IMG/VR virus record: IMGVR_UViG_3300020463_000001
Span: 128,001 to 192,000 of that record
Reading direction: 5' to 3' (one strand)
Source of the DNA: a virus
Lineage: Duplodnaviria > Caudoviricetes
DNA: 64,000 nt
In this document: piece after piece, positions 4,373 through 48,451 of the stretch
Layout of the letters: every line of letters starts with the position of its first letter
Position numbering within the stretch: position 1 is the first letter of the stretch
Translations under genes and position numbers: made by a program
The notes under the pieces: generated by a model
Seen by the model: the letters and a program-made list of their open reading frames with translations, nothing else
Told to the model about the DNA's origin: nothing
Databases searched by the model: none

Positions 4373-4383
4373 GAGTGTAAAAA

Positions 4384-4641
4384 ATGACTGACAATGAAGA
4401 AAATATAAATAATGAAGTAGATGCGACAACAAGTATTGTCGATGACATTGTTAATGGTGAATTATCAGATGCTCAGAATACAATCAAAGGTATACTGAGT
4501 CAAAATATGGCCGGCGAAATCGAAGGTCATAAACAAGAATTTGCGGGCACTCTTTTTCAAGATGAACCAGAAGTTGAGGTAGAAGATACCGAAGAAACAT
4601 CTGCAGAAGTCGAGACAGAGGTTGCAGAAACCGAAGAATAG
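4384..4641 (+). CDS. gp67: acidic prohead core protein (gp67-like)
   Basis: Small, very acidic, immediately after the portal gene; mainly positional. Confidence 0.65.
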   Translation: MTDNEENINNEVDATTSIVDDIVNGELSDAQNTIKGILSQNMAGEIEGHKQEFAGTLFQDEPEVEVEDTEETSAEVETEVAETEE

Positions 4642-4649
4642 GAATTACT

Positions 4650-4919
4650 ATGAAGACTTTTTCTCAATTTTTAGAAGATGATTTAGACGAAGCGGTAAAA
4701 CGTAAAGTTGTTATCCGTGGCGGAAAACGCAAGATTAAGTTTAAGTCTGACAGGGCCGGATACAAAGTTGACGGCAATAAAAGAGAAGTCAAAATTTCTG
4801 CATCAGATAAAGTCAAAATGAGTTTGAGAAATAAAAAGTCTGCTCGAAAGAGAAAGGGCAAAGTTGCTATTTCTAATACTCGCAGAGCAAGGTCAATGGC
4901 CAAACGTACAGGAACATAG
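4650..4919 (+). CDS. gp68: basic prohead core protein (gp68-like)
   Basis: Lys/Arg-rich, MKTFSQFLE..LDE N-terminus, precedes gp21. Confidence 0.75.
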   Translation: MKTFSQFLEDDLDEAVKRKVVIRGGKRKIKFKSDRAGYKVDGNKREVKISASDKVKMSLRNKKSARKRKGKVAISNTRRARSMAKRTGT

Positions 4920-4921
4920 AC

Positions 4922-5569
4922 ATGAAACTAATCACAGAAATTTGCGAAGATCTAATTGTTGAAGAAAAAGGAAAAGACCTTTATATCGAAGGTGTTTTTC
5001 TCCAGTCAAATGTAGAAAACAGAAATGGCAGAGTGTATCCAAAAGAAGTTCTTGAGAAAGAAGTCAAAAGATATACAGAAAATTACATCAATAAAAACAG
5101 GGCATTCGGTGAATTAGGTCATCCGGATGGGCCCTCTATTAACCTAGAAAGAGTTTCCCACATGATTAAATCTCTCAAACTTGAGGGCGATAATTATGTC
5201 GGTAAAGCAAAGATTATGAAAGAAACTCCTTATGGTGCAATAGTATCAAATCTTATCAAAGAAGGTGCGTCTCTTGGTGTTTCTTCTAGAGGTATGGGAA
5301 GTGTGAAGTCTACGAAAGAAGGAAACAATGTAGTGCAAGGTGATTTTTATCTTGCGACTGCGGCCGATATCGTGGCGGATCCATCTGCTCCTGATGCATT
5401 CGTAAATGGAATCATGGAAGGAAAGGAATGGATTTGGGATAATGGTATTATCCGCGAAGCACAAATTGACAGTTATCGAAATGCAGTTAGGTCTGCAAAG
5501 TCTAAAGAGATGGAAACTACTAAGATAGGACTCTTTGAAGATTTCTTCGAAAAATTGTCTAAAAACTAA
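4922..5569 (+). CDS. gp21: prohead core protease
   Basis: NRNGRVYP, GELGHPDGP, GVSSRGMGS, DIVADPSAPDA. Confidence 0.97.
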   Translation: MKLITEICEDLIVEEKGKDLYIEGVFLQSNVENRNGRVYPKEVLEKEVKRYTENYINKNRAFGELGHPDGPSINLERVSHMIKSLKLEGDNYVGKAKIMKETPYGAIVSNLIKEGASLGVSSRGMGSVKSTKEGNNVVQGDFYLATAADIVADPSAPDAFVNGIMEGKEWIWDNGIIREAQIDSYRNAVRSAKSKEMETTKIGLFEDFFEKLSKN

Positions 5570-5574
5570 ATTAT

Positions 5575-5582
5575 TATAAATA
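5575..5582 (+). promoter_or_regulatory. T4-type late promoter
   Basis: TATAAATA before gp22. Confidence 0.85.
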
Positions 5583-5617
5583 TTTGGTAAAATCAACTCA
5601 ATTAGGAGAATAATACG

Positions 5618-6682: not shown

Positions 6683-6694
6683 AAATCAAAATAT

Positions 6695-6702
6695 TATAAA
6701 TA
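6695..6702 (+). promoter_or_regulatory. T4-type late promoter
   Basis: TATAAATA before gp23. Confidence 0.85.
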
Positions 6703-6764
6703 ATAACTGAAAATTAAGAAAAACTTGACAAAAACTTAATTGAATTAATCCAAAGGAGACTACG

Positions 6765-8126
6765 ATGTATACAGAAATGCATTTGTCAGAGCAACTTCAA
6801 GAGAAGTGGAAGCCGGTAATCGAGCATCCCGATCTACCTAAGATCGAAGATTCTTACAAGAGAGCGGTAACTGCTATGCTTCTTGAAAACCAAGAAAAAG
6901 TTGCAAGAGAAGAAGCATCAATGTTGACTGAAGGGCCGATAAATGCAGTTGGTGGCGGTATGTCTCCAGTTGTCGGTGGTGAAGGCAACATTAAAGGTAT
7001 GGATCCAGTACTGATCTCATTGATCAGACGTTCTATGCCCAACCTGATGGCGTATGATGTTCTAGGTGTTCAACCTATGAGCGGCCCAACAGGTCTTATC
7101 TTCGCGATGAAATCACAATACGGCGATCAGGCCGGCGAAGCACTTTACGGCGAAGCAGATACTGCTTTCTCTGGTGCCTCAAGTCCTGTTCACAACGGAA
7201 CTGATCCATTCAGTGGTGTCGCAGTAACTGGTTCTGGCGCTTCTGCCGAACTTGATTACTCTGGTAGCGATTACACATCTGGAGGGCCCGCCGCTACTGC
7301 TAAGGCAGAAGCATTGGGAGACGGTACTGTAACTGGAATGGGTACAGGCGGTCACTTCAATCAGATGTCATTCTCAATCGATAGAGTATCTGTGACAGCG
7401 CAATCAAGAGCACTGAAAGCAGAATACACTATGGAATTGGCACAAGATCTGAAGGCAGTTCACGGTCTAGACGCTGAAAGCGAATTATCAAACATTCTTT
7501 CTTCAGAAATCACTGCTGAAATCAACAGAGAAGTTCTGAGAACAGTATACGCAGTTGCAAAGCCTGGCGCACAAGCTGGTGTAACTACGAAGGGTGTTTT
7601 TGATCTAGATGCTGACGCAGATGGTCGTTGGTCAGTAGAGAAGTACAAAGGTCTTCTTTACCAGATCGAAAGAGAAGCAAACGCAATCGCTAAAGAAACT
7701 CGTAGAGGAAAAGGTAACTTGGTTATCTGTTCTTCAGACGTTGCTTCGGCTCTCGCCATGTCAGGTGTACTAGATTACAACCCTGCGCTACAAACTAATC
7801 TTTCAGTTGATGACACAGGTCAAACTTTTGCCGGTGTTCTTAACGGAAGAATGAGAGTTTATATTGATCCTTACTTTACATCAACCTCTGGTTATGAGTT
7901 GTTGGTTGTAGGTTATAAGGGATCTTCACCTTATGATGCTGGTATTTTCTACTGCCCATACGTCCCATTACAAATGGTTCGCGCAGTGGGTGAAAATACT
8001 TTCCAACCTAAGATTGGATTCAAGACCCGATACGGAATTGTTGCAAACCCATTTGCATCAATGAGTTCTGGTTCAAACCAATACTACAGAAAGGTTGCCA
8101 TCTCAGGATTGACAGCAATCGGTTAA
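6765..8126 (+). CDS. gp23: major capsid protein
   Basis: GVQPMSGPTGLIFAM, SRALKAEYTMELAQDLKAVHGLDAE, YCPYVPLQM, FQPKIGFKTRYG. Confidence 0.99.
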   Translation: MYTEMHLSEQLQEKWKPVIEHPDLPKIEDSYKRAVTAMLLENQEKVAREEASMLTEGPINAVGGGMSPVVGGEGNIKGMDPVLISLIRRSMPNLMAYDVLGVQPMSGPTGLIFAMKSQYGDQAGEALYGEADTAFSGASSPVHNGTDPFSGVAVTGSGASAELDYSGSDYTSGGPAATAKAEALGDGTVTGMGTGGHFNQMSFSIDRVSVTAQSRALKAEYTMELAQDLKAVHGLDAESELSNILSSEITAEINREVLRTVYAVAKPGAQAGVTTKGVFDLDADADGRWSVEKYKGLLYQIEREANAIAKETRRGKGNLVICSSDVASALAMSGVLDYNPALQTNLSVDDTGQTFAGVLNGRMRVYIDPYFTSTSGYELLVVGYKGSSPYDAGIFYCPYVPLQMVRAVGENTFQPKIGFKTRYGIVANPFASMSSGSNQYYRKVAISGLTAIG

Positions 8127-8155
8127 TCGATTACTTAAAATCTAAAAAGAAAAAA

Positions 8156-8178
8156 GGGACTTTCGAGTCCCTTTTTTT
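8156..8178 (+). terminator. rho-independent terminator
   Basis: GGGACT-TTCG-AGTCCC stem-loop followed by T7, with an upstream A-tract. Confidence 0.9.
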
Positions 8179-8187
8179 GTGGTTGAT

Positions 8188-8195
8188 TATAAATA
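8188..8195 (+). promoter_or_regulatory. T4-type late promoter (drives putative sRNA)
   Basis: TATAAATA just after the gp23 terminator. Confidence 0.75.
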
Positions 8196-8293
8196 GTTTG
8201 GTCGTTTAACGACTTCCATTCTTACTTAAATTATTAAAGAGCAATTCTTTATAAAAAAGGTGGTAGAAGGGGGCAATGCCCCCTTCTTTTTTG
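8196..8293 (+). ncRNA. putative late small non-coding RNA
   Basis: Bounded by a late promoter and a terminator; no ORF; hairpins GTCGT-TTA-ACGAC and TAAAGA-GCAAT-TCTTTA. Confidence 0.5.
8265..8292 (+). terminator. rho-independent terminator
   Basis: AGAAGGGGGC-AAT-GCCCCCTTCT 10-bp stem followed by a T-run. Confidence 0.85.
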
Positions 8294-8313
8294 GGAAAGT
8301 CAAATACTTTTTT

Positions 8314-8321
8314 TATAAATA
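8314..8321 (+). promoter_or_regulatory. T4-type late promoter
   Basis: TATAAATA upstream of ATG 8357. Confidence 0.8.
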
Positions 8322-8356
8322 TAAGAAAATCATTTTACACTGGAGAGAGAGAATCC

Positions 8357-10633: not shown

Positions 10634-10651
10634 TTTAAATAGGAAAAACAA

Positions 10652-39067: not shown

Positions 39068-39075
39068 TATAAATA
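39068..39075 (+). promoter_or_regulatory. T4-type late promoter
   Basis: TATAAATA heading the 39.1-47.8 kb cluster. Confidence 0.85.
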
Positions 39076-39097
39076 TTCTATTAAAGGAATATTTTTG

Positions 39098-40351
39098 ATG
39101 CACGATTTTACTGATTTCTTAACGGAAGCGAAAGGTGGAAAAAATCTACACCTAGAACATATAGAAGAAGAAATCATCAATCATGGAATTGATGGTGGAC
39201 GCGCTGCATTAAATTTTCTTCGTTCTCTTCGTAATATGCTCGCCGGAACATCAGGTTCTAGAGTTAATATGACCGTTAAGTGGGACGGAGCTCCAGCAAT
39301 ATTCGCCGGAGTTGATCCATCAGACGGCAAGTTCTTTGTCGCAAAGAAAAGTGTTTTCAATGTCAACCCAATACTTTATAAGAGCATTAAAGATATTAAT
39401 GATGATACTTTATCTGCCCAACTTGATTCCAAATTCAAAATAGCATTTAATGAGTTCAAGAAACTCAATATCAAAGGTGTCATACAGGGAGACTTGATGT
39501 TCACCGATGATGTCTCTACTACCAAGATAGATGGTAAAACCTATTATACATTTCAACCAAACACTCTAGTATATGCTGCAGAAGTAAATTCTGATCTTGG
39601 TAAACAAATTAATAAGGCCAAGATTGGAGTAGTTTGGCACACCACATATAAAGGAAGTGATCTACAAGATATGTCTGCATCATTTGGTGTCAATATATCC
39701 GGACTTAAAAAGTCTTCTTCTGTTTGGATGGACGATGCGACATATAAAGATGTCTCTGGTAGTGCGAAGTTTACTAAATCCGAAACCGATCAAGTGACTA
39801 AAATATTATCTGGCGTTGGAAGTTCATTCAGAAAAATTAAATCATCTGAATTAAGAAAGTTCTTATCTATGCAGGATAAGAGTTTTTCTAAGTCGAAGGT
39901 CGGCGGGTCATTCAAAACATATTTAAATCAATTCATCAAATCTGGGAATAATTTTTCTGTACAAAATGTCAAAAACCTAAATTATTCTATGTACGTTAAA
40001 AAGTATTACGATGAAAAAGTAATATCGAAATTGAAGTCTGCAAGGGGCAGAGAGGCAAAAGAACAAGAGAGAGATGAATTAGTAAAACAATTGATCTCGT
40101 ATGATAAATTAATAATAAACTTGGTAGAATTCATGCAAGGATTAGTTTCTGCGAAGTCAATTATTGTAACGAAGTTGAATAAAGTGAAACAACTTACCGA
40201 TATCTTTATAAGAACTTCAACTGGATATGAAGTAAGTAATCCGGAAGGATATGTTGCTATTGATAGGAGTGGTAAGGGTGCGGTAAAACTGGTCGATAGA
40301 TTAGAGTTTAGTTATAATAACTTTACTGCTGCGAAAAACTGGGATAAGTGA
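39098..40351 (+). CDS. conserved protein with KxDG motif (ligase/nucleotidyltransferase-like) and capsid-targeting-like N-terminus
   Basis: MHDFTDFLTE; HLEHIEE; TVKWDGAPA; QGDLMF; EGYV; VKLVDR. Confidence 0.6.
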   Translation: MHDFTDFLTEAKGGKNLHLEHIEEEIINHGIDGGRAALNFLRSLRNMLAGTSGSRVNMTVKWDGAPAIFAGVDPSDGKFFVAKKSVFNVNPILYKSIKDINDDTLSAQLDSKFKIAFNEFKKLNIKGVIQGDLMFTDDVSTTKIDGKTYYTFQPNTLVYAAEVNSDLGKQINKAKIGVVWHTTYKGSDLQDMSASFGVNISGLKKSSSVWMDDATYKDVSGSAKFTKSETDQVTKILSGVGSSFRKIKSSELRKFLSMQDKSFSKSKVGGSFKTYLNQFIKSGNNFSVQNVKNLNYSMYVKKYYDEKVISKLKSARGREAKEQERDELVKQLISYDKLIINLVEFMQGLVSAKSIIVTKLNKVKQLTDIFIRTSTGYEVSNPEGYVAIDRSGKGAVKLVDRLEFSYNNFTAAKNWDK

Positions 40352-40352
40352 T

Positions 40353-40820
40353 ATGTACAAGTATAGAGTTGATGTGATAAAAGTTATTGATGGTGACACA
40401 GTAGATGTTGATATCGATTTAGGATTTGGTGTTTGGTTAAAGAAAGAACGAGTTAGATTATATGGAATTGACACTCCAGAGTCCAGAACCAGAGATTTAG
40501 AAGAAAAGAAATTTGGATTACTCGCAAAAGACTTCTTACAGGAAGCCTTAATGGGAGATAAATATGATGAGGTATTACTACAAACTCACAAAGACGAAAA
40601 GGGTAAGTTTGGTAGAATACTTGGTGAGTTTATTGTAGTAGATAACGCTGGTCATCCTACGTTTGAAGTAGAATTAAATTTAAACGATATGATGATAGAA
40701 CGCAAGATGGCGGTTGCCTATTACGGTCAGAGCAAAGATGATATTGAAGAAGGTCATCTAAAGAATAGAGAATACCTCTATGAGAATGGAACGGTAGAAT
40801 TTGAAATTGCGGAAAGTTAA
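40353..40820 (+). CDS. staphylococcal nuclease-like (thermonuclease) protein
   Basis: VIDGDTVDV, RVRLYGIDTPE, GKFGRILG. Confidence 0.9.
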   Translation: MYKYRVDVIKVIDGDTVDVDIDLGFGVWLKKERVRLYGIDTPESRTRDLEEKKFGLLAKDFLQEALMGDKYDEVLLQTHKDEKGKFGRILGEFIVVDNAGHPTFEVELNLNDMMIERKMAVAYYGQSKDDIEEGHLKNREYLYENGTVEFEIAES

Positions 40821-42181
40821 TGAGAGATTATAAACAAATATTCCTCAACGAGAAACTCAAGAGAGTTGCACAGGACAAAGATATCGAAGATAAAGAAGGT
40901 ACTCAACCGAAGAAGTACTACGCTGGAGATATGTCTAAATCAACTAAAGATAAACGTGCAGCACACTTCAAAAAGAAGAAGTCTGGGCCTGCTCCAGGCG
41001 ATGCTGGTGCGAAAACAAAACCATCCAAACATACATTAAAGTATAAGAAGATGTATGGTGAGGAAGAGAACGAAGCAGTATCTCCTGCCCAACAGGCAGC
41101 GATTGCCATTGCAAAAAAAGAAAAGAAAAAACAACAAGAGAAACTTGATCCTAAGAAGGATGATGCCGGAGATTATATAGACGATTTCCGCAAGTCAGAC
41201 GCTCCTCAGTTTAAGGGTAAGTCTGACAAAAAGATTCAAAAGATGGCCATCGCAGCATATCTCAAAGACAAAGAAAAATCAGAAGAAGTAGATTTAGAAG
41301 AAGGCATAAATGATCCTTCTATATTCAAGGCAGTATTCCTCGCAGGAGGGCCCGGATCCGGTAAATCATTCATTGTAGGTCAAACTGGACTGGTTGCGCT
41401 TGGCATGAAACTTGTTAATTCAGATCCAGCATTTGAGAAGTTACTCAAGAAAGCAGGATTATCAACAACTCCAGATGATATAATGTCGCCGCAAGGACAA
41501 GCAGTCAGAGGTAAAGCAACTAAGCTGACAGACATTCAGAAGTCAATGTATATTAAGGGAAGATTGGGACTTGTCATCGACGGAACTGGGAAGAACTTCA
41601 AGAAGATATTAACACAAAAGAGATACTTAGATCAACTAGGATATGACTCTGCAATGATTTTTGTCAACACAGATCTTGAGACTGCATTAGAAAGAAACCG
41701 AAATCGTCCAAGACAATTGCCAGACGCAGAAGTAGAAAAGATGTGGAAGGGAGTTCAGAAGAATATCGGTAGATTCCAGAACACATTTAAGACAAATTTT
41801 TATGTGGTGGACAACTCTGACGGTGCAGATTTCGCAAGAGACTCAAAGAGAGTTTATAAAGATATTAAAACTTGGTCTACTAAACCTCCCAAGAATAGTA
41901 TCGGCAAAGATTGGATAACTCAGGTGAAGAAACAAAGAGGTATCAAGGAGGATTATTCTATGGACATATATGAAGATCAAGAATCGAAGATGGCATTAAC
42001 TCAACTCAGAGCCCTCGCAGATAAAGCAGAACAACTCTCAGATGAACTAATTGGTCTTCTGCGTGATTCTCCTAATCAGGATATCGAATTGGACGCATGG
42101 GTTCAGGCAAAGATTACTAAGGCAAGTGATTATATGACATCCGTCTATGATTACATGATGTATTCGGAGAAAGAAGATTGA
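40820..42181 (+). CDS. multi-module protein with a zeta-toxin/AAA_33-like P-loop kinase
   Basis: KAVFLAGGPGSGKS, VNSD, VIDGTG, RNRNRPR; basic N-modules and a helical C-module separated by acidic linkers. Confidence 0.75.
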   Translation: MRDYKQIFLNEKLKRVAQDKDIEDKEGTQPKKYYAGDMSKSTKDKRAAHFKKKKSGPAPGDAGAKTKPSKHTLKYKKMYGEEENEAVSPAQQAAIAIAKKEKKKQQEKLDPKKDDAGDYIDDFRKSDAPQFKGKSDKKIQKMAIAAYLKDKEKSEEVDLEEGINDPSIFKAVFLAGGPGSGKSFIVGQTGLVALGMKLVNSDPAFEKLLKKAGLSTTPDDIMSPQGQAVRGKATKLTDIQKSMYIKGRLGLVIDGTGKNFKKILTQKRYLDQLGYDSAMIFVNTDLETALERNRNRPRQLPDAEVEKMWKGVQKNIGRFQNTFKTNFYVVDNSDGADFARDSKRVYKDIKTWSTKPPKNSIGKDWITQVKKQRGIKEDYSMDIYEDQESKMALTQLRALADKAEQLSDELIGLLRDSPNQDIELDAWVQAKITKASDYMTSVYDYMMYSEKED

Positions 42182-42501
42182 AAGACTTTAAACAATACAT
42201 GACAGAAAAAGTCAAGGTAGAAGTACAGAATCCACAAAGTCTTGAAGATTTCGAAGATCCTCAAGTATACTTTAATGGAATATATACATATAGTACTCTC
42301 AATATGAAGTTGAGGGGTTATGTGGATCAACTATCTCGCGCAGTCAAAATGAAAAACTGGAAACAAGCCGGAAGTCTTATGGAGAAGGGTGGGATGTCTA
42401 TGAATATTCCAGACCTCATAGAAGCAATTGAACAAGTTGAAAAGGAAATGGGTTCTAGGACATGGAAATCCAAGAGAACCAAAATGAAAAAGAAAGGATA
42501 A
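42178..42501 (+). CDS. hypothetical protein with capsid-targeting-like N-terminus
   Basis: TTG start; MKDFKQYMTE. Confidence 0.55.
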   Translation: MKDFKQYMTEKVKVEVQNPQSLEDFEDPQVYFNGIYTYSTLNMKLRGYVDQLSRAVKMKNWKQAGSLMEKGGMSMNIPDLIEAIEQVEKEMGSRTWKSKRTKMKKKG

Positions 42502-42504
42502 ATT

Positions 42505-42681
42505 ATGTGTGTTAGTGAAAAACAAGATTTAGTAAATACTCTGAGAAGAGAAATTGCTTATGCAGAGTCACAGGTTCGTCCATCTGCGACAGGAAATATT
42601 ATTACCGCAATCAGTTGGATGAAAACTAGAGTGGAAGAATTAGAAACACAACTCAACGAAGAGTACTTGGAAGCAATGTAA
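42505..42681 (+). CDS. small hypothetical protein (58 aa, not in ORF track)
   Basis: AAGGA RBS; MCVSEKQDLVNTLRREIAYAESQ...; TAATG-coupled to the next gene. Confidence 0.6.
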   Translation: MCVSEKQDLVNTLRREIAYAESQVRPSATGNIITAISWMKTRVEELETQLNEEYLEAM

Positions 42682-43232
42682 TGAAAAGTTTCGCGTCTTA
42701 CAATAAGACTATATGTGAAGATTGCAGCGAAGCAATCCGATTTCATTTAGAGAATGATATACCATTCCTAGAGAATATATTTCGTATGGGTTCTGAAGGA
42801 TTTTTTGAATTCTTTATAGAGGCCAAAGGATTATATCATGAAGGTAAATTAGAACACCTAAATGAATCCGACATAGAGATATTAAATACCGACATAGGAG
42901 ACTTTGCGGAGTTTGAAGGCGAAGAAGTCCCACTGGATTTACCTATGTCAGAAGAAGAAAAAGATGTGGAACTGAATAAACCCAAGAGAGGCGGCAGTAA
43001 AAAATATTATGTTTATGTTAAGAATGATAAAGGAAATGTTATAAAGATTTCGTTTGGTGATGATACTGGACTCTCTGCAAAAATCAATGACCCCGAAGCA
43101 AGAAAATCCTTTAATGCTAGGCATAAATGTGCTCAAAAGAACGACAAAACAAAGGCCGGATACTGGGCTTGTCGTTTACCGAAGTATGCTAAATCATTGG
43201 GACTTTCTGGCGGGGGTAACTTCTTTTGGTAG
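42681..43232 (+). CDS. conserved phage protein (acidic N-module, basic C-module ARKSFNARHKC...AGYWAC)
   Basis: MKSFASY..ICE N-terminus; LNE and MSE motifs. Confidence 0.6.
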   Translation: MKSFASYNKTICEDCSEAIRFHLENDIPFLENIFRMGSEGFFEFFIEAKGLYHEGKLEHLNESDIEILNTDIGDFAEFEGEEVPLDLPMSEEEKDVELNKPKRGGSKKYYVYVKNDKGNVIKISFGDDTGLSAKINDPEARKSFNARHKCAQKNDKTKAGYWACRLPKYAKSLGLSGGGNFFW

Positions 43233-43501
43233 AACCATACGTTCAAACCTCAATAACATCAAATAAATTCCTCAGAACATTCCCAGAAACAGTCGATGAA
43301 GATTCTCTCGTATGGCATAGAGATATAAACACAAGACACATGAGAGTAATAGAAGTAGGAGATTGGTATTTTCAGAAAGATAATATTTTACCAGCAAAGT
43401 TAAAATTTGATGATGAGTTTATTATATGGGAAATGGAATATCATAGGTTAATAAAAAAAAGTGGCCACCTTATTATCGAAATTACTGAGTTCCGGAAATA
43501 A
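43226..43501 (+). CDS. small cupin-like protein
   Basis: LVWHRD...YHRLIK metal-ligand pattern. Confidence 0.55.
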   Translation: MVEPYVQTSITSNKFLRTFPETVDEDSLVWHRDINTRHMRVIEVGDWYFQKDNILPAKLKFDDEFIIWEMEYHRLIKKSGHLIIEITEFRK

Positions 43502-43523
43502 CGAACAGATAAATACAAGTACT

Positions 43524-43940
43524 ATGAGTAAAGAATACAAATACGAAGATATAGATTACGGTTTCACTGCCGTCGATGAAGACGAACTTGCGGAACTCCG
43601 ATCTGCGCCTCAAGAAGTCTCGGTCAAGATTGACGGTGTAGATAGTGAAATACAAAATCTTGGTATCAAAATACAAGAATTAGTAGAACTTCAGACAGAT
43701 ATTATGTCTGAGTTGGTCGATACGAAACAACTGTATCAGGAAAAACTGAGCGGATTAGATATAACCAGTGAAGTTACGGAAGATAAGTTAATGAAAGTAG
43801 AAAAACTTATTATGCCACTTCTTTATAATTTATTGAAGAACAAAGAGAAAGATTATATTTACTGGCCCAATCGTGAACCGATTATCAAAACTCAGATAGA
43901 AAAGATACTTGAAATAACAAGGACTTCCGATGAAGGATAA
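43524..43940 (+). CDS. conserved T4-like coiled-coil protein
   Basis: DYGFTAVDEDEL; PLLYNLLKN..DYIYWPNR; start ATG 43524. Confidence 0.6.
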   Translation: MSKEYKYEDIDYGFTAVDEDELAELRSAPQEVSVKIDGVDSEIQNLGIKIQELVELQTDIMSELVDTKQLYQEKLSGLDITSEVTEDKLMKVEKLIMPLLYNLLKNKEKDYIYWPNREPIIKTQIEKILEITRTSDEG

Positions 43941-44934
43941 AGTAGTCTTCACATTCGGAAGATTTAATCCTCCAACAATAGGACATGAGAAGTTGTTGGA
44001 TAAAGTCTATGCGGTTGCTTCTAGAGAGGGGGCTGATTTCTTGGTGTTCCCTAGTCACTCTCAAAACCCAAAGAAAGATCCATTGGATTTCAGATCCAAG
44101 GTCAAATTTATGAAGAAGATGTTTCCGAAGTATTCTAAGAACATTATGTCAAATAATAAAGTCAAGACTGCGTTTAATGCTGTCAGTCTTCTTCATGAAC
44201 TGGGATACAAAGAAGCGTTAATGGTTGTGGGTGGAGATAGAGTATCAGAGTTTAATAGTGTCCTTAATAAGTATAATGGAGTTGAAGGCAGACATGGTTT
44301 CTATGACTTCGAAGGTGGAATCAAAATAGTATCTGCAGGAGAAAGAGATCCAGATGCGGAAGGTGTCTCCGGTATGTCTGCGTCTAAGATGAGAACAGCC
44401 GCTGCAGCAAATGACTATGACTCGTTTAAAAATGGATTGCCATCTAAGTTTAGAGGCGGAGACCTTCTATTTAAAATGTTGCGTAAGGCAATGAAAGTAG
44501 AAGAAACAGAATTAGGAATATTTCTTGGTTCTGATGTTAATACTTTCAGAGAATTTATAGAGTCTCCTACAGTAGAATCTATAGAAGTATTTAATGATAA
44601 GGAACTCATACAAGAATTTTATACCCCAGTTAATCTACAGAAGAGAGAATCATCTATCTCAGGTTTCAAGTCTTTTCTTAGCGAAGAGAATGTCGAAGAA
44701 GATTTTACTAATATTCCTTGGATTGATGATACTCTAGATAGATTGTTTAGAAGAAGTAGATATAAGATGGCGCTTCAATACTTTTTCAAGTTTTACGACA
44801 AAGATCCACAACATAATTCTAGAAATGCGTTAGATAGGGCCTCTAAAGTTTTGGGATTAGAACCTTTACCTCTTCAAAAATATGTCATATCTTTAATTAA
44901 AAAAGGTAAGATCCCGAAAAAGTACTCTTTCTAA
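43930..44934 (+). CDS. HIGH-family nucleotidyltransferase (cytidyltransferase-like) with C-terminal extra module
   Basis: TFGRFNPPTIGHEKL, VVGGDRV, SAGERDPD, MSASKMR. Confidence 0.85.
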   Translation: MKDKVVFTFGRFNPPTIGHEKLLDKVYAVASREGADFLVFPSHSQNPKKDPLDFRSKVKFMKKMFPKYSKNIMSNNKVKTAFNAVSLLHELGYKEALMVVGGDRVSEFNSVLNKYNGVEGRHGFYDFEGGIKIVSAGERDPDAEGVSGMSASKMRTAAAANDYDSFKNGLPSKFRGGDLLFKMLRKAMKVEETELGIFLGSDVNTFREFIESPTVESIEVFNDKELIQEFYTPVNLQKRESSISGFKSFLSEENVEEDFTNIPWIDDTLDRLFRRSRYKMALQYFFKFYDKDPQHNSRNALDRASKVLGLEPLPLQKYVISLIKKGKIPKKYSF

Positions 44935-44938
44935 AAAT

Positions 44939-44946
44939 TATAAATA
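44939..44946 (+). promoter_or_regulatory. T4-type late promoter
   Basis: TATAAATA before the 960-aa gene. Confidence 0.85.
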
Positions 44947-44966
44947 TTGAGGATAAATATACCTAA

Positions 44967-47849
44967 ATGGGGATCGTTATGGAATCTGGTCACAATTCAT
45001 TCAAAAATTTCCTTGAGTGGCATAAGAAAGAAGGCGCAGAAAGAAGAGTCCGTGGTGGAGATAAGAGGAAACCTCATAACAAAGAGTTAGAGGAATCTGA
45101 TGAAGCACTTAAAGGCAAAGCCGAAAAAAGTGGTATCTCTCTTGGAATTCTAAAACAAGTCTACAATCGTGGAATGGCTGCATACAAGACAGGTCATCGC
45201 CCCGGCACAACTGCACAACAATGGGCACTTGCCCGTGTCAACTCCTTTATCACCAAAGGAAAAGGAACATGGGGTGGTGCGGATAAAGATCTCGCTGCTA
45301 AAGTCGGTGGTGGAACCAAGAAAGAACAAGCTCCTTGTTGGGATGGATATAAACAAATAGGAATGAAAAAGAAAGGGAACAAGATGGTTCCCGATTGTGT
45401 CCCAGAGTCTTTTAGTGGAGCAGAGAAACAACCATTCAAATCCAAGGCTGGTGCTGGAGAATTTGCATCCAAAGAACTAGAAAAGAAATATCGCAAAGGA
45501 ACTCCTGGCCAACCAAAGAAAAAGATTGAAGATGCCACGATAACAGAAAAACTAGATTATGATTTGTATCACAAAACATTTTCTGCCGCAATGCAACATT
45601 CTTACAAGGTGGCAAAGAAAAGAGGATTCAAAGTATCTGCAGATTCGATAGATACACAGGTCGCATTTGGCCCTCGCAAACCATCAAACGGAAAGATGAA
45701 CAGTTATCATTTAGACTTGGATGGAGAAAGAAATAAGAAACTTCGCGTTCAAGTATACAACACCGGAAAGTCATACGAACTGAATATGTATATTGAGTCT
45801 ATGGAACTTAATGAGAGAATGTCCAGAAAAGACTTTGAAAAACTGAAGAAAGGCGATAAGGTAGAAATAAATTACGGTAGCACCATGTCTGGTTCTACGA
45901 CTAGAGAGTTTTCTGTAGTCAATAGATCCAGAAGTGCGAAGTATGATGTTGATAAGATAAGACTACAACCGACAGACAAGACTGGCGGAATGAAATTCTT
46001 TCTCTATAGCAGAAAGGGTGGAGATGCCACCCTCGCACTTGGAGATATGGGCGCATCCATTAAGAGTTATAGATTGACAGAAGAAGTCGAACTTCGAGAG
46101 AAGAAGTACAGTCCTTCTGATGAAAAGAAAATCCAAAAAACAATTAGTATTATGAAGAAGTATCCAGACAATAAAAAGAAGTCGGATAAAGAATTAAGAG
46201 ACGGTGCGATTGAATATCTATTCCACAATAGAACTATGAAAAGAAAGAAGGTAGAAACTACAGAAGGTTTCACCACATCACAGATTGGTAAACTGAAGAA
46301 GGCATACTCTACTGTTTCTACTGTAGATCCTACTAGTTCTTCTTATAAAAAATTAACAAAGATGATTAAGTCTCAGGATAAAGAAGCTCTGACTCAAATT
46401 GCAAAGGCAAAGGTTAACTTTGTCTCTCAGATAGCTGCAACAGAACTTCGAAGAACTCACAACATTAAACTGAAGGCTTCTGAATTTATGGAGGAAATTG
46501 AGATGAATGAGTCAGAATTTAAGACTGTCAAAGGAAAAGATGGTAAGAAGTATGACGTTAAGATTTCTATGGACGGCAAAAAGTTCAAGTTTAGAGTGAC
46601 GGATAAGACCGGAAATGTAGGCGCATTTAAGGTTATATCTCTAGGCCAGGCTGCAAAACTCTTTGAGAACCTAGAAGAACTTATAGATATCACTGAAGAA
46701 AGTGGTATCGAACTTGCTCGTAAAATTGTTGACAGAAAACAACACATGAAGGGAATTGATTTGACCACTGCTGGTCTTATTCTACAAGTTTATGATAAAG
46801 TAAACGATAAGAATAAATCGAAGATGGAGAAGATGTCTGGAAAACAACTTGCTTCTGTTGTCTACAAAATGCTTTCTAAAGAAGAAGTTCAAGAGGAACA
46901 TGATATGTATGGATATAAATTATTCAATGAAGAAGTTGAACTTGATGAGAAATTGAAAGTTGGGGATAAGGTCAAGTTCAAGAAAGGCATCGACCCAAAG
47001 ACTGCTAGAAGTTATGGAGACGCAATAAGGAAGTCTGGCAAGGTTGTGAAGGACTACGGTGATGGTGATGTCAAAGTAAACTTTGGTGGTAATAATGATA
47101 AGTCTGTTGATGCTAAACTATTAGTAAAAGAAGAAGTAGAACTAGAAGAAGCGACAGGAAAAGAAATTGCTGCACTCATGAAGAAATCCAAGACTATGAA
47201 AGGATTTGCTGCTAAAGTTGCGAAGATGAAGACTGTCACCGTAGATGATCTAGAAGATATGCTTCCCGATTATGTTTCTGGTGGAGATATCAGAAAGATG
47301 TTCGAAGCTCATTGTAGTTCTAAGAAAATGAAGAAAGAAGGAATTACCGATGAAGATGTTGCACAGTTTATTGGTGCCGCGTCTGCTGCTAAGAAGGCTG
47401 GAAAGAAAAATTTCTCATTTGGTGGTAAGTCTTATCCAGTAACGATCTCTGGAGATACTGCAAAGAAGGTTCTTGAGGACTCTCTTGAGGAATCCTTGCA
47501 AGAAAAGATGGATCCTACAGAACACGTTGAGAAAAATAAAGAAACTGGGATGTATTGTGTCTATGATGCCAACGGGAAGAAAGTAAAAGAATTTGAGGAT
47601 AAGGAAGAAGCAGATGACTATGCTATCAAGAATCACGAAAAATTGATGGCTGTAAAGGAGTCTAAATATACAGACATAGAAGAATTAATTGAGTCTTCTG
47701 ATAAAAAAGACGCAGCAGAGATGTCGAAGTTAGTGAAAGAATTGCAACCAAAAATTTCTAACTCTGAATTGAAGAAAGAGGTTCATGCAATGGCAATGGA
47801 AAAATATAAGAACAAAACTAGAGCGAAGAAGATCGCCAGTTTTGCATAA
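44967..47849 (+). CDS. large modular putative internal-head polyprotein
   Basis: Lys-rich modules separated by EEVELxE-type motifs; NSFKNFLE near the N-terminus; alternative start 44979. Confidence 0.6.
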   Translation: MGIVMESGHNSFKNFLEWHKKEGAERRVRGGDKRKPHNKELEESDEALKGKAEKSGISLGILKQVYNRGMAAYKTGHRPGTTAQQWALARVNSFITKGKGTWGGADKDLAAKVGGGTKKEQAPCWDGYKQIGMKKKGNKMVPDCVPESFSGAEKQPFKSKAGAGEFASKELEKKYRKGTPGQPKKKIEDATITEKLDYDLYHKTFSAAMQHSYKVAKKRGFKVSADSIDTQVAFGPRKPSNGKMNSYHLDLDGERNKKLRVQVYNTGKSYELNMYIESMELNERMSRKDFEKLKKGDKVEINYGSTMSGSTTREFSVVNRSRSAKYDVDKIRLQPTDKTGGMKFFLYSRKGGDATLALGDMGASIKSYRLTEEVELREKKYSPSDEKKIQKTISIMKKYPDNKKKSDKELRDGAIEYLFHNRTMKRKKVETTEGFTTSQIGKLKKAYSTVSTVDPTSSSYKKLTKMIKSQDKEALTQIAKAKVNFVSQIAATELRRTHNIKLKASEFMEEIEMNESEFKTVKGKDGKKYDVKISMDGKKFKFRVTDKTGNVGAFKVISLGQAAKLFENLEELIDITEESGIELARKIVDRKQHMKGIDLTTAGLILQVYDKVNDKNKSKMEKMSGKQLASVVYKMLSKEEVQEEHDMYGYKLFNEEVELDEKLKVGDKVKFKKGIDPKTARSYGDAIRKSGKVVKDYGDGDVKVNFGGNNDKSVDAKLLVKEEVELEEATGKEIAALMKKSKTMKGFAAKVAKMKTVTVDDLEDMLPDYVSGGDIRKMFEAHCSSKKMKKEGITDEDVAQFIGAASAAKKAGKKNFSFGGKSYPVTISGDTAKKVLEDSLEESLQEKMDPTEHVEKNKETGMYCVYDANGKKVKEFEDKEEADDYAIKNHEKLMAVKESKYTDIEELIESSDKKDAAEMSKLVKELQPKISNSELKKEVHAMAMEKYKNKTRAKKIASFA

Positions 47850-47859
47850 GTGAGGTATC

Positions 47860-48219
47860 ATGGGTAAGTTTACGCCGCCTAAGTGGGCAAAATTCGCAGT
47901 CGCGACAGATAAGGGATGGGAAGATTCCAGAACTGGAGAACTCTTAGTTTCTATGAGAAACTTAAAGACCGATATGGAAGCCGCCGCAGCACCTGTCGTT
48001 GCAGAACCAGAGCCTGTTGAAGAACCAGTGGTCGAAGAGAAACCCAAGAAGAAACGCGAACAGAAAAATCATTTCGCAGCAAAACCAGAATCGCCAGACT
48101 TTGAATCAATGACAAAAGAAGAACTGGAACTCTGGGCAAGAGAACACATAGATGTCGAGTTGGACAGAAGAAAGACTAAGAAAAGTCTTATCGAAGAAAT
48201 ACAGGAAAATTTAAAGTAG
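47860..48219 (+). CDS. conserved T4-like protein with C-terminal Rho-N/HeH-like helical motif
   Basis: PPKWAK..ATDKGW...TGELLVS; MTKEELE..DRRKTKKSLIEEI. Confidence 0.55.
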   Translation: MGKFTPPKWAKFAVATDKGWEDSRTGELLVSMRNLKTDMEAAAAPVVAEPEPVEEPVVEEKPKKKREQKNHFAAKPESPDFESMTKEELELWAREHIDVELDRRKTKKSLIEEIQENLK

Positions 48220-48238: not shown

Positions 48239-48451
48239 ATGGCAGTATCACAATTTGGTCAAGAGAACTATATCGCAAACGGCCTAGGAATCCCTGCCCA
48301 CGATTTTATAGAAAACTCATACGAATCCTCTACTAATAATTTGATTGCAGTTGAATACAAACTTGGAGGTTCGTCCGGTACAGTGGTTGCCCGTTTAGAT
48401 TTTACATATGATTCATCCGGAAACTTACTGACTGTTGAAAGGACGGCGTAA
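48239..48451 (+). CDS. small fibre-associated structural protein
   Basis: IPAHDFI...YKLGGSSGTVVA..TYDSSGNL; coupled to the fibre gene. Confidence 0.55.
   Translation: MAVSQFGQENYIANGLGIPAHDFIENSYESSTNNLIAVEYKLGGSSGTVVARLDFTYDSSGNLLTVERTA

What the first reader, a model, noticed from the sequence alone, without database searches (positions are those of the whole stretch)
39068..47849. Late gene cluster with T4 internal-protein-like capsid-targeting signals: a candidate injected enzyme kit
Seen: after late promoters at 39068 and 44939, successive ORFs begin MHDFTDFLTE (39098), MRDYKQIFLNE (40820), MKDFKQYMTE (42178), MKSFASYNKTICE (42681) and ..NSFKNFLE (44979). The HIGH NTase has internal TFREFIE and GFKSFLSE. 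The prohead core protein at 4650 starts MKTFSQFLE. Known: T4 IPII/IPIII use the 10-aa MKTYQEFIAE signal for prohead packaging, which gp21 removes after Glu, and IPs are ejected into the host. Inference: a KxDG ligase-like protein, a P-loop kinase, a nucleotidyltransferase and many basic modules are packaged and delivered with the DNA, possibly as a first-minute anti-defence or nucleic-acid repair set.
Basis: partly seen in the sequence, partly recalled or inferred. Interest (0 to 1): 0.78.

Follow-up and report, generated by a model that had tools for sequence, protein, structure and literature searches.

The report
Head-loading tags on marine phage enzymes
A marine T4-like phage puts the same short N-terminal tag that phage T4 uses to load proteins into its head on several enzymes, and tagged counterparts in two cultured cyanophages were found in purified virus particles, so these enzymes are probably packed with the DNA.

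Summary
Both TATAAATA boxes, every quoted N-terminus and both internal NTase motifs are at the stated coordinates.

The motif M-x-x-[F/Y]-x-x-[F/Y/I]-[L/I/M]-x-E fits the four positions known to matter in the T4 capsid targeting sequence (CTS): 4 and 7 for targeting, 8 and 10 for gp21 cleavage.

It is not chance:
- Strict matches occur at 2-3 gene starts in the genome, against about 0.02 expected.
- In 80 related loci, 7.3% of ORFs start with it, against 0.12% at internal Met.
- It sits on many unrelated, mostly basic proteins, and the constraint is on amino acids, not codons.
- It is disordered in a confident AlphaFold model.
- Small basic ORFs next to gp21 in relatives begin MKTYSEFIAE, 9/10 identical to T4 IPII/IPIII.

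Published virion proteomes give outside support. In cyanophage S-CREM2 all 3 strict-motif ORFs were found in virions, and so was the S-SM1 NTase (MKKFSAFLNE).

The cargo includes an RNA-ligase-like protein (DUF6267) and a kinase closest in fold to polynucleotide kinases.

Caveats: this phage's own NTase has no N-terminal tag, and packaging, cleavage, ejection and function were not tested for this phage.

This scan has noted similar tags on other phage genomes. I found no paper linking the CTS to marine T4-like phages.

The parts
39068..39075 (+). T4-type late promoter box TATAAATA ahead of the cluster
   Evidence: Exact match. The window has 18 copies against 5.4 expected. It lies in the 33-nt gap between the 2OG-Fe(II) oxygenase gene and the DUF6267 gene.
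39098..40351 (+). DUF6267 protein, 417 aa, pI 9.4. Tag MHDFTDFLTE at 39098-39127, then an RNA-ligase-like nucleotidyltransferase. KWDG lies at 39278-39289, EGYV at 40244-40255 and VKLVDR at 40283-40300.
   Evidence: Pfam DUF6267, E = 5e-100, model starting at residue 16. K61, D63, G64, D132, E383, G384 and K397 are invariant in 70 diverse homologues. AlphaFold pLDDT is 90.7, with residues 4-14 below 50. The best fold matches are RNA ligases, Z 6.7-8.4. The tag is on nearly all close homologues.
40353..40820 (+). Staphylococcal-nuclease-like protein, 155 aa, acidic (pI 4.7), no tag
   Evidence: Pfam SNase, E = 1.4e-10. Homologues in related loci also have no tag.
40820..42181 (+). Basic multi-module protein, 453 aa, pI 9.3. 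Tag-like start MRDYKQIFLNE at 40820-40852, about 150 residues of Lys-rich modules, the junction DLEE|GINDP at 41291-41317, then a P-loop kinase (GGPGSGKS at 41345-41368).
   Evidence: Pfam Zeta_toxin and AAA_33. AlphaFold model of the core has pLDDT 85. The best superpositions are polynucleotide kinases. [LIVMF]-x-E directly precedes the core in 111 of 120 homologues.
42178..42501 (+). Small basic protein, 107 aa, pI 9.5, with the exact-spacing tag MKDFKQYMTE (42178-42207). TTG start.
   Evidence: Strict motif hit. GGAG lies 9 nt upstream of the TTG. No family match.
42681..43232 (+). 183-aa protein with a longer IPI-like start, MKSFASYNKTICE (42681-42719). It has a conserved C-terminal module that occurs inside fused giant proteins in relatives.
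   Evidence: phrog_7595. Homologues begin MKTF.E..[AI][IL].E. The module is fused to NTase, kinase and DUF5824 modules in L014, L017, L020 and L025.
42505..42681 (+). 58-aa acidic ORF without a tag (function unknown)
43226..43940 (+). Two ORFs without tags (91 aa at 43226-43501; 159 aa at 43461-43940), pI 5.8 and 4.4
   Evidence: Their homologues in related loci also have no tag, so they act as internal negative controls.
43930..44934 (+). HIGH-motif nucleotidyltransferase (PF01467), 334 aa, pI 9.2. No N-terminal tag. Internal tag-like elements TFREFIE (44542-44562) and GFKSFLSE (44662-44685).
   Evidence: Pfam and PHROGs. Most homologues carry an N-terminal tag, but this subclade starts MKDKVVFTFGRFNPP. 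The internal element at about residue 246 is conserved in the subclade and marks the place where modules are inserted.
44939..44946 (+). Second late promoter box TATAAATA
44979..47849 (+). 956-aa basic multi-module protein, pI 9.4, with a DUF5824 domain. Start MESGHNSFKNFLE. EEVELxE linkers at 46074-46100, 46929-46949 and 47130-47150.
   Evidence: Pfam DUF5824. 14 L/I-x-E sites. Its modules occur as separate tagged ORFs or inside fused proteins in relatives.
4650..4919 (+). 89-aa very basic ORF (pI 11.3) between portal and protease, starting MKTFSQFLE. It sits where T4 has its core genes 67 and 68.
   Evidence: Synteny. ORFs at this position in relatives start MKTYSEFIAE, MKAFKDFMEA or MKSFSEYLDE, with pI 10-11.
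4922..5569 (+). gp21-type prohead maturation protease
   Evidence: phrog_207, E = 6e-77. It aligns with T4 gp21.
6918..6932 (+). S-M-L-T-E in the major capsid protein, aligned with the T4 gp23 maturation site S-F-L-T-E|A
   Evidence: Pairwise alignment with T4 gp23. It shows that an L-x-E site is kept at the homologous position.

Best explanation
The cluster at 39098-47849 is a late-expressed set of head-internal cargo genes in a T4-like marine myovirus.

Proposed mechanism:
1. Most of the products begin with a roughly 10-residue peptide, M-x-x-(F/Y)-x-x-(F/Y/I)-(L/I/M)-x-E. It works like the T4 capsid targeting sequence. The aromatic residues at positions 4 and 7 attach the protein to the scaffolding core while the prohead is built.
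2. The gp21-type protease (4922-5569) then cuts after the Glu of the L/I-x-E element and frees a basic mature protein among the packaged DNA. The same cut site probably also separates the modules of the 453-aa and 956-aa proteins.
3. The cargo includes an RNA-ligase-like nucleotidyltransferase (DUF6267), a kinase most like polynucleotide 5'-kinases, small basic proteins, and possibly the HIGH-motif nucleotidyltransferase.
4. [quoted passage not shown] There, the ligase-like protein and the kinase could heal and seal broken nucleic-acid ends from the first moment of infection.

Shown here: the motif itself, its enrichment, its portability across unrelated proteins, its conservation at the amino-acid level, its disorder in a confident model, the protease gene, the conserved capsid cleavage site, and the folds.

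Shown in published work on relatives: tagged counterparts are present in purified virions.

Inferred: packaging and cleavage in this phage, ejection, and the biochemical role.
For: Fit to the T4 rules:
- Positions 4, 7, 8 and 10 of the tag match the residues that matter in T4 (PMC9026906).
- The T4 record confirms MKTYQEFIAE.

Enrichment and portability:
- In this genome, strict matches at real gene starts are 2-3 against about 0.02 expected.
- In 80 related loci, 73 of 1000 ORFs carry the tag, against 0.12% at internal Met. All are on the cluster strand, and 32 are in families unrelated to the window's proteins, including RimK-type ATP-grasp enzymes.
- Position counts among the 73: F4 in 68, F/Y7 in 60, L/I8 in 70.
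- Synonymous codons at the conserved positions follow general usage.
- Tagged proteins are basic: 5 of 5 in this genome (p = 6e-4), and median pI 9.4 against 7.0 in relatives (p = 1e-7).

Family-wide conservation:
- The tag is on nearly all close DUF6267 homologues and most NTase homologues.
- Part of the kinase homologues carry it directly before the core, for example MIKFKRFIEE|GIND.
- [LIVMF]-x-E precedes the kinase core in 111 of 120 homologues, whatever lies upstream.

The tag is an appendage:
- It is the only low-confidence stretch of a model with pLDDT 90.7.

Link to the head:
- Basic ORFs next to gp21 in relatives start MKTYSEFIAE, 9/10 identical to T4.
- The gp21 homologue is present, and L-T-E is kept at the gp23 cut site.
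- Late promoter boxes sit at both cluster starts.

Experimental support from relatives:
- S-CREM2: all 3 strict-motif ORFs in the 175-kb genome were detected by MS in virions (SAM hydrolase, kinase, NTase; Fisher p = 0.012).
- With a relaxed motif the count is 5 of 7, and the 2 misses do not have the motif at the N-terminus. The virion table is in PMC10665884.
- S-SM1: the NTase (MKKFSAFLNE) gave 25 peptide counts, and 4 of 5 adjacent cluster genes were detected (PMC3037559 Table S8).

Folds:
- DUF6267 matches RNA ligases at Z 6.7-8.4 and has an invariant KxDG.
- The kinase matches C. thermocellum Pnkp kinase and T4 PNK at TM 0.66-0.74, rmsd 3.3-3.8 A.
Against: - There are no virion protein data for this phage or its closest isolates (the Melnitz phages, HTVC008M).
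- No neo-N-terminus after the Glu has been observed in any marine T4-like phage, so cleavage is inferred.
- Only two of the six window N-termini have the exact T4 spacing. The others have a residue more or fewer, or are shifted.
- The window's NTase has no N-terminal tag.
- The conserved L/I-x-E before the DUF6267 and kinase cores could be part of those domains rather than a cut site.
- The S-CREM2 authors themselves warn that abundant enzymes might co-purify with virions.
- Some virion-detected neighbours have no canonical tag (S-SM1 genes 188 and 191; S-CREM2 gp155 and gp156).
- In related loci the late promoter box is not significantly enriched directly upstream of tagged ORFs (p = 0.09).
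- The RNA-ligase fold scores are middling (Z of 8.4 or less), and Foldseek found nothing significant.
- No phosphatase or cyclic phosphodiesterase, which a full RNA-repair set would need, was found in the cluster.
Confidence: 0.78

Rival explanations
1. The tag does load the proteins into the head, but they work there and are not effectors sent into the host. They might serve as core or scaffold parts, as DNA-condensing basic proteins, or as enzymes that act on the packaged genome or on nucleotides during assembly.
For: - The tagged proteins are strongly basic and rich in Lys modules, as expected for DNA-bound internal proteins.
- One tagged ORF sits at the position of the T4 core genes, next to the protease.
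- The T4 core proteins gp67 and gp68 are cut up and lost rather than injected.
Against: - T4 internal proteins and Alt, which use this route, are ejected.
- The cargo in relatives includes a SAM hydrolase and kinases, whose known or proposed targets are in the host cell.
- A ligase-like enzyme and a polynucleotide-kinase-like enzyme have no evident substrate inside a closed capsid.
Confidence: 0.12
2. The shared N-terminus is an address or interaction peptide for something other than the prohead core. Candidates are a chaperone, the membrane, the tail or baseplate, or a replication or transcription factory. The likeness to the T4 tag would then be convergent.
For: - Nothing in the sequence shows what the tag binds.
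- Some virion-detected neighbours have no tag.
- The cluster adjoins tail-fibre-like genes.
Against: - Up to 9 of 10 residues match the T4 tag, on ORFs right next to the gp21 protease gene.
- The tag ends in the protease's own cut motif, which the capsid protein also keeps.
- All strictly tagged proteins of S-CREM2 are in virions although they are not structural.
Confidence: 0.06
3. The motif is not a signal. It would be chance, a composition effect of AT-rich gene starts, an RNA-level translation element, or simply the first helix of each domain.
For: - MK starts are common in AT-rich phage genes.
- Ungapped scoring against the T4 tag gave only weak genome-wide enrichment.
- L/I-x-E also precedes the domains when they lie inside larger proteins.
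Against: - The motif is about 60-fold enriched over internal Met positions, and 2-3 strict hits are seen against about 0.02 expected.
- Synonymous codons vary freely at the conserved positions.
- The tag sits on unrelated folds and is missing from some members of each family.
- It is disordered in a confident model.
- It goes with virion detection.
Confidence: 0.03

Closest known systems
Phage T4 capsid targeting sequence on internal proteins IPI, IPII and IPIII, removed by the gp21 prohead protease
   Same: - A 10-residue N-terminal peptide with aromatic residues at 4 and 7, L/I at 8 and Glu at 10.
- Up to 9 of 10 residues identical in relatives (MKTYSEFIAE against MKTYQEFIAE).
- Attached to unrelated, basic proteins whose genes are expressed late.
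- A gp21 homologue is present, and an L-x-E site is kept in the capsid protein.
   Different: - The cargo here is mostly large enzymes and multi-module proteins of 400-960 aa, not proteins of 95-193 aa.
- The tag is conserved across whole enzyme families in marine metagenomes.
- Several tags vary in length.
- Tag-like elements also occur at junctions inside fused proteins.
- Loading, cleavage and ejection have not been shown for this lineage.
T4 Alt, an ADP-ribosyltransferase packaged in the head and injected
   Same: An enzyme of about 76 kDa carried in the head, processed by gp21 and delivered with the DNA to act at time zero.
   Different: - Alt's propeptide (MELITELFDE) differs from the internal-protein tag.
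- Alt is also trimmed at its C-terminus.
- The enzymes here are unrelated to Alt.
Virion-associated 'non-structural' proteins of T4-like cyanophages: cytidylyltransferase T4-GC190 in S-SM1; SAM hydrolase, kinase and cytidylyltransferase in S-CREM2
   Same: - The NTase is a homologue of the window's NTase (46-52% identity over the core).
- The genes lie in the syntenic cluster.
- The proteins carry the same tag.
   Different: - The published papers report detection only. They name no loading signal and leave contamination open.
- In cyanophages the DUF6267 homologue has no tag, whereas here it has one and the NTase does not.
T4 Pnkp plus Rnl1, and the bacterial Pnkp/Rnl/Hen1 system (RNA end healing and sealing)
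   Same: A polynucleotide-kinase-like P-loop kinase and an RNA-ligase-like lysine nucleotidyltransferase are encoded side by side.
   Different: - No phosphatase or cyclic phosphodiesterase domain was found.
- Sequence similarity is at fold level only.
- The T4 enzymes are made after infection and are not packaged.
- No activity has been tested.
Long propeptides of the ejection proteins of giant phages (phiKZ, SPN3US)
   Same: Head-internal proteins that are cut after Glu by a related prohead protease. The propeptide is needed for incorporation.
   Different: - Those propeptides are about 100 residues or longer.
- The cut motif there is A/S-x-E.
- They show no sequence likeness to the tag seen here.

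Membership tests
T4-type capsid targeting sequence / internal-protein system | N-terminal peptide of about 10 residues with the targeting determinants at positions 4 and 7 (aromatic in T4) | tested here: met
   F4 and F7 in 39098. F4 and Y7 in 42178. F4 and F7 in 4650. F4 and Y7 in 42681. Y4 with one extra residue in 40820. Shifted by four residues in 44979. The rule comes from PMC9026906.
T4-type capsid targeting sequence / internal-protein system | Processing determinants: L/I at position 8 and Glu at position 10 (the gp21 site L/I-x-E) | tested here: met
   L-T-E (39098), M-T-E (42178), L-N-E (40820) and I-C-E (42681). 4650 and 44979 have F-L-E, and 4650 also has L-D-E at residues 12-14. 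Among the 73 tags in relatives, L/I8 occurs in 70 and E10 in all by definition.
T4-type capsid targeting sequence / internal-protein system | The phage encodes a gp21-type prohead protease that cuts after L/I-x-E | tested here: met
   phrog_207, E = 6e-77, at 4922-5569. The capsid protein has L-T-E aligned with the T4 gp23 cut site. The enzyme's specificity itself is inferred.
T4-type capsid targeting sequence / internal-protein system | The same tag sits on otherwise unrelated proteins (a portable signal) | tested here: met
   It occurs on DUF6267, kinase, NTase, small ORFs, ATP-grasp, SAM hydrolase and other families.
T4-type capsid targeting sequence / internal-protein system | The proteins are physically present inside purified virions | not testable with these tools
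   There are no data for this phage. Published MS found tagged counterparts in S-SM1 and S-CREM2 virions. I tested the link across the whole S-CREM2 genome: 3 of 3 strict, p = 0.012.
T4-type capsid targeting sequence / internal-protein system | The tag is removed after Glu during head maturation | not testable with these tools
   This needs N-terminal peptide data. Indirect support: [LIVMF]-x-E directly precedes the conserved kinase core in 111 of 120 homologues.
T4-type capsid targeting sequence / internal-protein system | The cargo is ejected into the host with the DNA | not testable with these tools
   Inferred only by analogy with T4.
Covalent nucleotidyltransferases (ATP-dependent RNA/DNA ligases, capping enzymes), for DUF6267 | Motif I, KxDG, with the catalytic lysine | tested here: met
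   K61, D63 and G64 are invariant in 70 homologues of 35-68% identity.
Covalent nucleotidyltransferases (ATP-dependent RNA/DNA ligases, capping enzymes), for DUF6267 | Motifs III, IV and V in the right order, and the nucleotidyltransferase fold | tested here: inconclusive
   D132, E383-G384 and K397 are invariant and in the expected order. The best non-helical fold matches are all RNA ligases, then DNA ligases: Z 8.4 (5cot, rmsd 3.8 A, 187 residues aligned) down to Z 6.7 (T4 Rnl1). These Z values are middling, Foldseek was not significant, and I could not check residue-level superposition.
Polynucleotide 5'-kinase (kinase domains of T4 PNK and bacterial Pnkp), for the 40820 protein | P-loop kinase fold closest to PNK | tested here: met
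   GGPGSGKS is present. The best Foldseek rows are 4gp6, 4mde and 4gp7 (TM 0.66-0.71, rmsd 3.4-3.8 A) and T4 PNK 1ly1 (TM 0.74, rmsd 3.4 A). Other small-molecule kinases have similar E-values but rmsd of 5-7 A. The substrate is not known. Pfam Zeta_toxin passes its cut-off and AAA_33 falls just below its own.
PF01467 cytidylyltransferase-like (HIGH-motif) nucleotidyltransferases, for the 43930 protein | Pfam score above the gathering threshold, and the H-x-G-H motif | tested here: met
   25.4 bits against a cut-off of 21. GRFNPPTIGH lies at residues 10-19. phrog_395 and phrog_3041, E of about 1e-55.

The most novel reading that the evidence does not exclude
Marine T4-like phages (cyanomyoviruses, pelagiphage-like and methylophage-like myoviruses) share one ancient loading tag that can be read from sequence. 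It fills the head with a swappable set of enzymes. In this lineage the set includes a ready-made nucleic-acid repair pair, an RNA-ligase-like enzyme and a polynucleotide-kinase-like enzyme, cut out of tagged precursors by the head protease and injected to undo host nuclease attack before any phage gene is expressed.
Probability: 0.2. Interest if true: 0.85.

Novelty: new variant of a known kind. Interest (0 to 1): 0.72.

Why it matters
T4-like myoviruses are among the most abundant viruses in the sea. For over a decade their virion proteomes have turned up unexpected enzymes (cytidylyltransferase, kinases, SAM hydrolase). It has stayed unclear whether these are real cargo or contaminants.

A conserved T4-type loading tag on exactly those proteins gives a mechanism for their presence. 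It also gives a simple sequence rule for predicting which proteins a marine phage carries into its host.

That makes the question directly testable, through N-terminal proteomics and tag-reporter fusions. It also points to new time-zero functions: an RNA-ligase-like family (DUF6267) not mentioned in any paper of the library searched, a polynucleotide-kinase-like kinase, and ATP-grasp enzymes. And it shows that the T4 tag is far older and more widespread than the T-even coliphages where it was defined.

Tried and rejected
- Megablast of the cluster against 50,697 phage records found nothing. Relatives were reached only at protein level.
- My first fixed-length regex missed the variants with a residue more or fewer.
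- Ungapped BLOSUM scoring of all N-termini against the T4 tag gave only weak genome-wide enrichment (3 of 229 against 1% background at score 16 or more). I replaced it with a test of the four functional positions.
- phmmer against PDB sequences gave nothing for DUF6267, the kinase or the NTase.
- NCBIfam gave only sub-threshold hits.
- Foldseek against the PDB gave no significant match for DUF6267. The RNA-ligase likeness comes from the VIA-align wide search.
- The late promoter box directly upstream of tagged ORFs in related loci is not significantly enriched (9 of 73 against 62 of 927, p = 0.09). The genes appear to be read as operons from fewer promoters.
- I suspected that S-CREM2 ORF112 (408 aa, 76 peptides) was the DUF6267 homologue. 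It is not: it is acidic and unrelated.
- An RNA-level signal was rejected, because synonymous codons vary freely at the conserved positions.
- The idea that the tag is a structural first helix of the domain was rejected, because it is disordered in the model and missing from some family members.
- The earlier notes of this scan on this stretch are first-reader notes only, so I did not use them as evidence.

Full report
**What the window is.** The window is part of a 200.7-kb, 38% GC genome of a T4-like marine myovirus. Nearly all genes lie on the + strand. It holds a T4-type head module:
- portal, 2804-4372;
- two small ORFs, 4384-4641 and 4650-4919;
- a gp21-type protease, 4922-5569;
- scaffold, 5618-6682;
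- major capsid protein, 6765-8126.

No phage record matches at DNA level. At protein level the nearest isolates are the Methylophilales (OM43) Melnitz phages at about 60% identity, then pelagiphage HTVC008M and the cyanomyoviruses.

**Checking the observation.**
- TATAAATA is at 39068 and at 44939. The window has 18 copies against 5.4 expected, 17 of them on the + strand and many just upstream of structural genes.
- The ORFs begin MHDFTDFLTE (39098), MRDYKQIFLNE (40820), MKDFKQYMTE (42178, a TTG start with GGAG 9 nt upstream), MKSFASYNKTICE (42681) and MESGHNSFKNFLE (44979).
- The NTase (43930-44934) has TFREFIE and GFKSFLSE inside it.
- The ORF at 4650 begins MKTFSQFLE.
- I read the T4 reference from the T4 record. 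IPII and IPIII begin MKTYQEFIAE, IPI begins MKTFKEF...ITE, and all three are basic.

The review of Black's work states the functional rules. Residues 4 and 7 of the tag carry targeting, residues 8 and 10 carry processing, and gp21 cuts after L/I-x-E (PMC9026906). The 39098 start fits all four positions exactly and 42178 nearly so. The others are variants with a residue more or fewer, or are shifted.

**Is it more than chance?** In this genome:
- A fixed-length regex and ungapped scoring against the T4 tag did not discriminate well.
- A test of the four functional positions over all 4026 candidate start codons gave 3 hits against 0.4 in column shuffles. That is about 0.02 expected at the roughly 229 real starts, where 2-3 are seen.
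- The five tagged proteins are all basic (pI 9.3-11.3), against 49 of 224 others (p = 6e-4). The untagged ORFs of the cluster are acidic.

**The comparative evidence is much stronger.**
- Among 120 DUF6267 homologues of 60% identity or more, essentially all begin M-x-x-F-x-x-(Y/F/I/L)-L-x-E followed by the invariant KGGKNLHLEH.
- Among 150 representatives at 50% identity or less, many keep the tag and others start directly at the domain. Some fusion proteins have an F..FL.E or L-x-E element at the internal junction.
- Most NTase homologues carry the tag directly before the catalytic core, for example MKSFSQYLSE and MKKFSEFLSE. The window's own subclade starts MKDKVVFTFGRFNPP instead.
- In 80 related IMG/VR loci, 73 of 1000 ORFs start with the tag, against 0.12% at internal Met. 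All are on the cluster strand. 32 are in families unrelated to anything in the window. Median pI is 9.4 against 7.0.
- Other cargo includes RimK-type ATP-grasp enzymes.
- Position counts are F4 in 68 of 73, F/Y7 in 60 and L/I8 in 70.
- Codon usage at these positions follows general usage, with all six Leu codons used. So the constraint is on the peptide, not on the RNA.
- Families that are conserved in the cluster but never tagged (the SNase, orf91, orf159, orf131, orf221) act as internal negative controls.

**Link to the head.**
- The capsid protein has S-M-L-T-E aligned with the T4 gp23 maturation site S-F-L-T-E|A. So the protease's L-x-E site is kept at the homologous position.
- In relatives, the small and very basic ORF directly upstream of the gp21 gene often begins MKTYSEFIAE, which is 9 of 10 identical to T4. 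Other starts are MKAFKDFMEA, MKTFKDFTEA and MKSFSEYLDE.
- A review states that genes 67 and 68 are missing from cyanophages (PMC2984593). These small ORFs at that position look like internal or core proteins that carry the T4 tag.

**Experimental support from published proteomes.**
- Sullivan et al. 2010 found the cytidylyltransferase (T4-GC190, 25 peptide counts) in purified S-SM1 virions, along with T4-GC1453, 1454 and 1455 (PMC3037559). These are four of five adjacent genes in the syntenic cluster.
- The S-SM1 NTase begins MKKFSAFLNE and gene 192 begins MLSFKELQE.
- The untagged S-SM1 DUF6267 homologue (T4-GC71) is not in the parts of the table that I read.
- Liu et al. 2023 list 52 virion proteins for S-CREM2 (PMC10665884). 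I assembled the record from four stretches and scanned every ORF. Exactly three match the strict motif, and all three are virion proteins: SAM hydrolase (MKDFDSFLEE), kinase (KRFDAFLTE) and NTase (MKNFSSFLTE). That is 3 of 3 against 47 of 215, p = 0.012.
- A relaxed, unanchored motif adds gp13 (MKDLHSFLTE) and the large nuclease gp12 (...RFASFMAE), giving 5 of 7 (p = 0.008). In the two misses the motif is not at the N-terminus.
- The S-CREM2 authors say these enzymes may be carried in the virion but might be contaminants. They name no signal.
- Full-text searches found no paper that links the capsid targeting sequence to cyanophages or pelagiphages, and none that mentions DUF6267.

**What the cargo is.**
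- DUF6267 (39098-40351). In 70 diverse homologues K61-x-D63-G64, D132, E383-G384, K397 and the pair H18/H21 are invariant. The AlphaFold model is confident (pLDDT 90.7, pTM 0.88), and the tag is its only disordered part. Foldseek found nothing significant. The wide VIA-align search put RNA ligases first among non-helical matches: Naegleria nick-sealing ligase Z 8.4, trypanosome REL1 8.0, Trl1 7.5, T4 Rnl2 7.5 and T4 Rnl1 6.7, followed by DNA ligases. I read this as an RNA-ligase-like lysine nucleotidyltransferase with an inserted helical domain. The activity is untested.
- The 40820 protein has a tag-like start, about 150 residues of Lys-rich modules, the junction DLEE|GINDP, and then a P-loop kinase. 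The folded core (pLDDT 85) superposes best on C. thermocellum Pnkp kinase and T4 PNK (TM 0.66-0.74, rmsd 3.3-3.8 A). Nucleotide and shikimate kinases fit worse, at rmsd 5-7 A.
- In 111 of 120 kinase homologues the core is directly preceded by (L/I/V/M/F)-x-E with a free middle residue. This holds whether 10 residues or several hundred lie upstream. That is what a conserved cut site would look like, although it could also be part of the domain.
- The NTase is a PF01467 HIGH enzyme. Some source annotations name its homologues NMN adenylyltransferase.
- The SNase-like protein is acidic and untagged.

**Modular build.**
- In relatives a single tagged giant protein carries the NTase, the small basic modules, the kinase, DUF5824 and the orf183 module in various orders. 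In this phage they are split among several ORFs.
- At internal junctions, sequences such as ...TFKDFVDQINE|VKQDK... and EEVELDE recur.
- The window NTase's element at about residue 246 is conserved in its untagged subclade. It marks the place where extra modules are inserted, and those modules follow an N-terminal tag in other phages.
- The 956-aa protein has 14 L/I-x-E sites, including three EEVELxE linkers.
- I therefore think the protease also cuts these precursors into modules. This is an inference.

**Conclusion.**
- The best explanation is a T4-type head-loading and processing tag on an enzyme-rich cargo set (confidence about 0.78 for loading).
- Confidence is lower for cleavage, lower again for ejection, and about 0.2-0.3 for a nucleic-acid repair role.
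- It works like the T4 internal-protein system and meets every sequence-level feature of that system that I could test. The physical features (presence in this phage's virion, cleavage, ejection) cannot be tested with these tools.
- I class it as a new variant of a known kind. The mechanism is the known one. What is new is its reach into abundant marine phages, the enzyme and multi-module cargo, and the explanation it gives for puzzling proteome data.
- This scan has noted similar tags on other phage genomes. Those are unchecked notes, and I did not use them as evidence.

Noticed in passing
L093-L172 (loci around gp21 homologues), ORF directly upstream of the protease gene: Many marine T4-like contigs have a basic ORF of about 122-133 aa (pI 10-11) starting MKTYSEFIAE, MKAFKDFMEA or MKTFKELREA next to the protease gene. 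Reviews say cyanophages lack genes 67 and 68, so these may be unrecognised internal or core proteins.
   Followed up: partly
L032:6837-8201 and L053:1705-2754: RimK-type ATP-grasp enzymes, one of them with a Zn-protease-like C-terminal domain, carry the tag (MENFRSFITE, MDSFKKFLAE) in related phages. They would be an unexpected kind of head cargo.
   Followed up: partly
window 47860-48219: The C-terminal 35 residues of this 119-aa ORF, just downstream of the cluster, weakly match a PHROG annotated as prohead protease inhibitor (phrog_8608, E = 4e-6). T4 has a head-located protease inhibitor (inh).
   Followed up: no
window 48451-52926: A 1491-aa protein made of many repeats of about 30-40 residues (TTVSGYGITDAFDG... 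and SSLSGAPTNVSTFTNDSGY...). It is probably a fibre, and it shows negative GC skew against the rest of the window.
   Followed up: no
window 39149-39160 (DUF6267 residues 18-21): The pair H18/H21 (HLEH) is invariant across the DUF6267 family and lies just after the tag. It is not one of the nucleotidyltransferase motifs (I, III, IV, V) considered above. Its role is unknown.
   Followed up: no
P0343, P0346, P0367, P0370 (metagenome proteins): Fusion proteins in which a different HIGH-type NTase (start MKKIALLPGGFKPPHA) precedes a DUF6267 domain. PHROG 455 also joins the two. This suggests that the ligase-like enzyme and an NTase act in one pathway.
   Followed up: no
window 40353-40820: A natural staphylococcal-nuclease homologue sits in the cargo cluster but has no tag and is acidic. 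By coincidence, staphylococcal nuclease was one of the foreign proteins loaded into T4 heads with the tag.
   Followed up: no
L087 (S-CREM2 3837-13331): The S-CREM2 virion-detected SAM hydrolase, large nuclease, gp13, kinase and gp15 form one minus-strand block. That block is a second tagged cargo cluster, far from the NTase cluster.
   Followed up: partly
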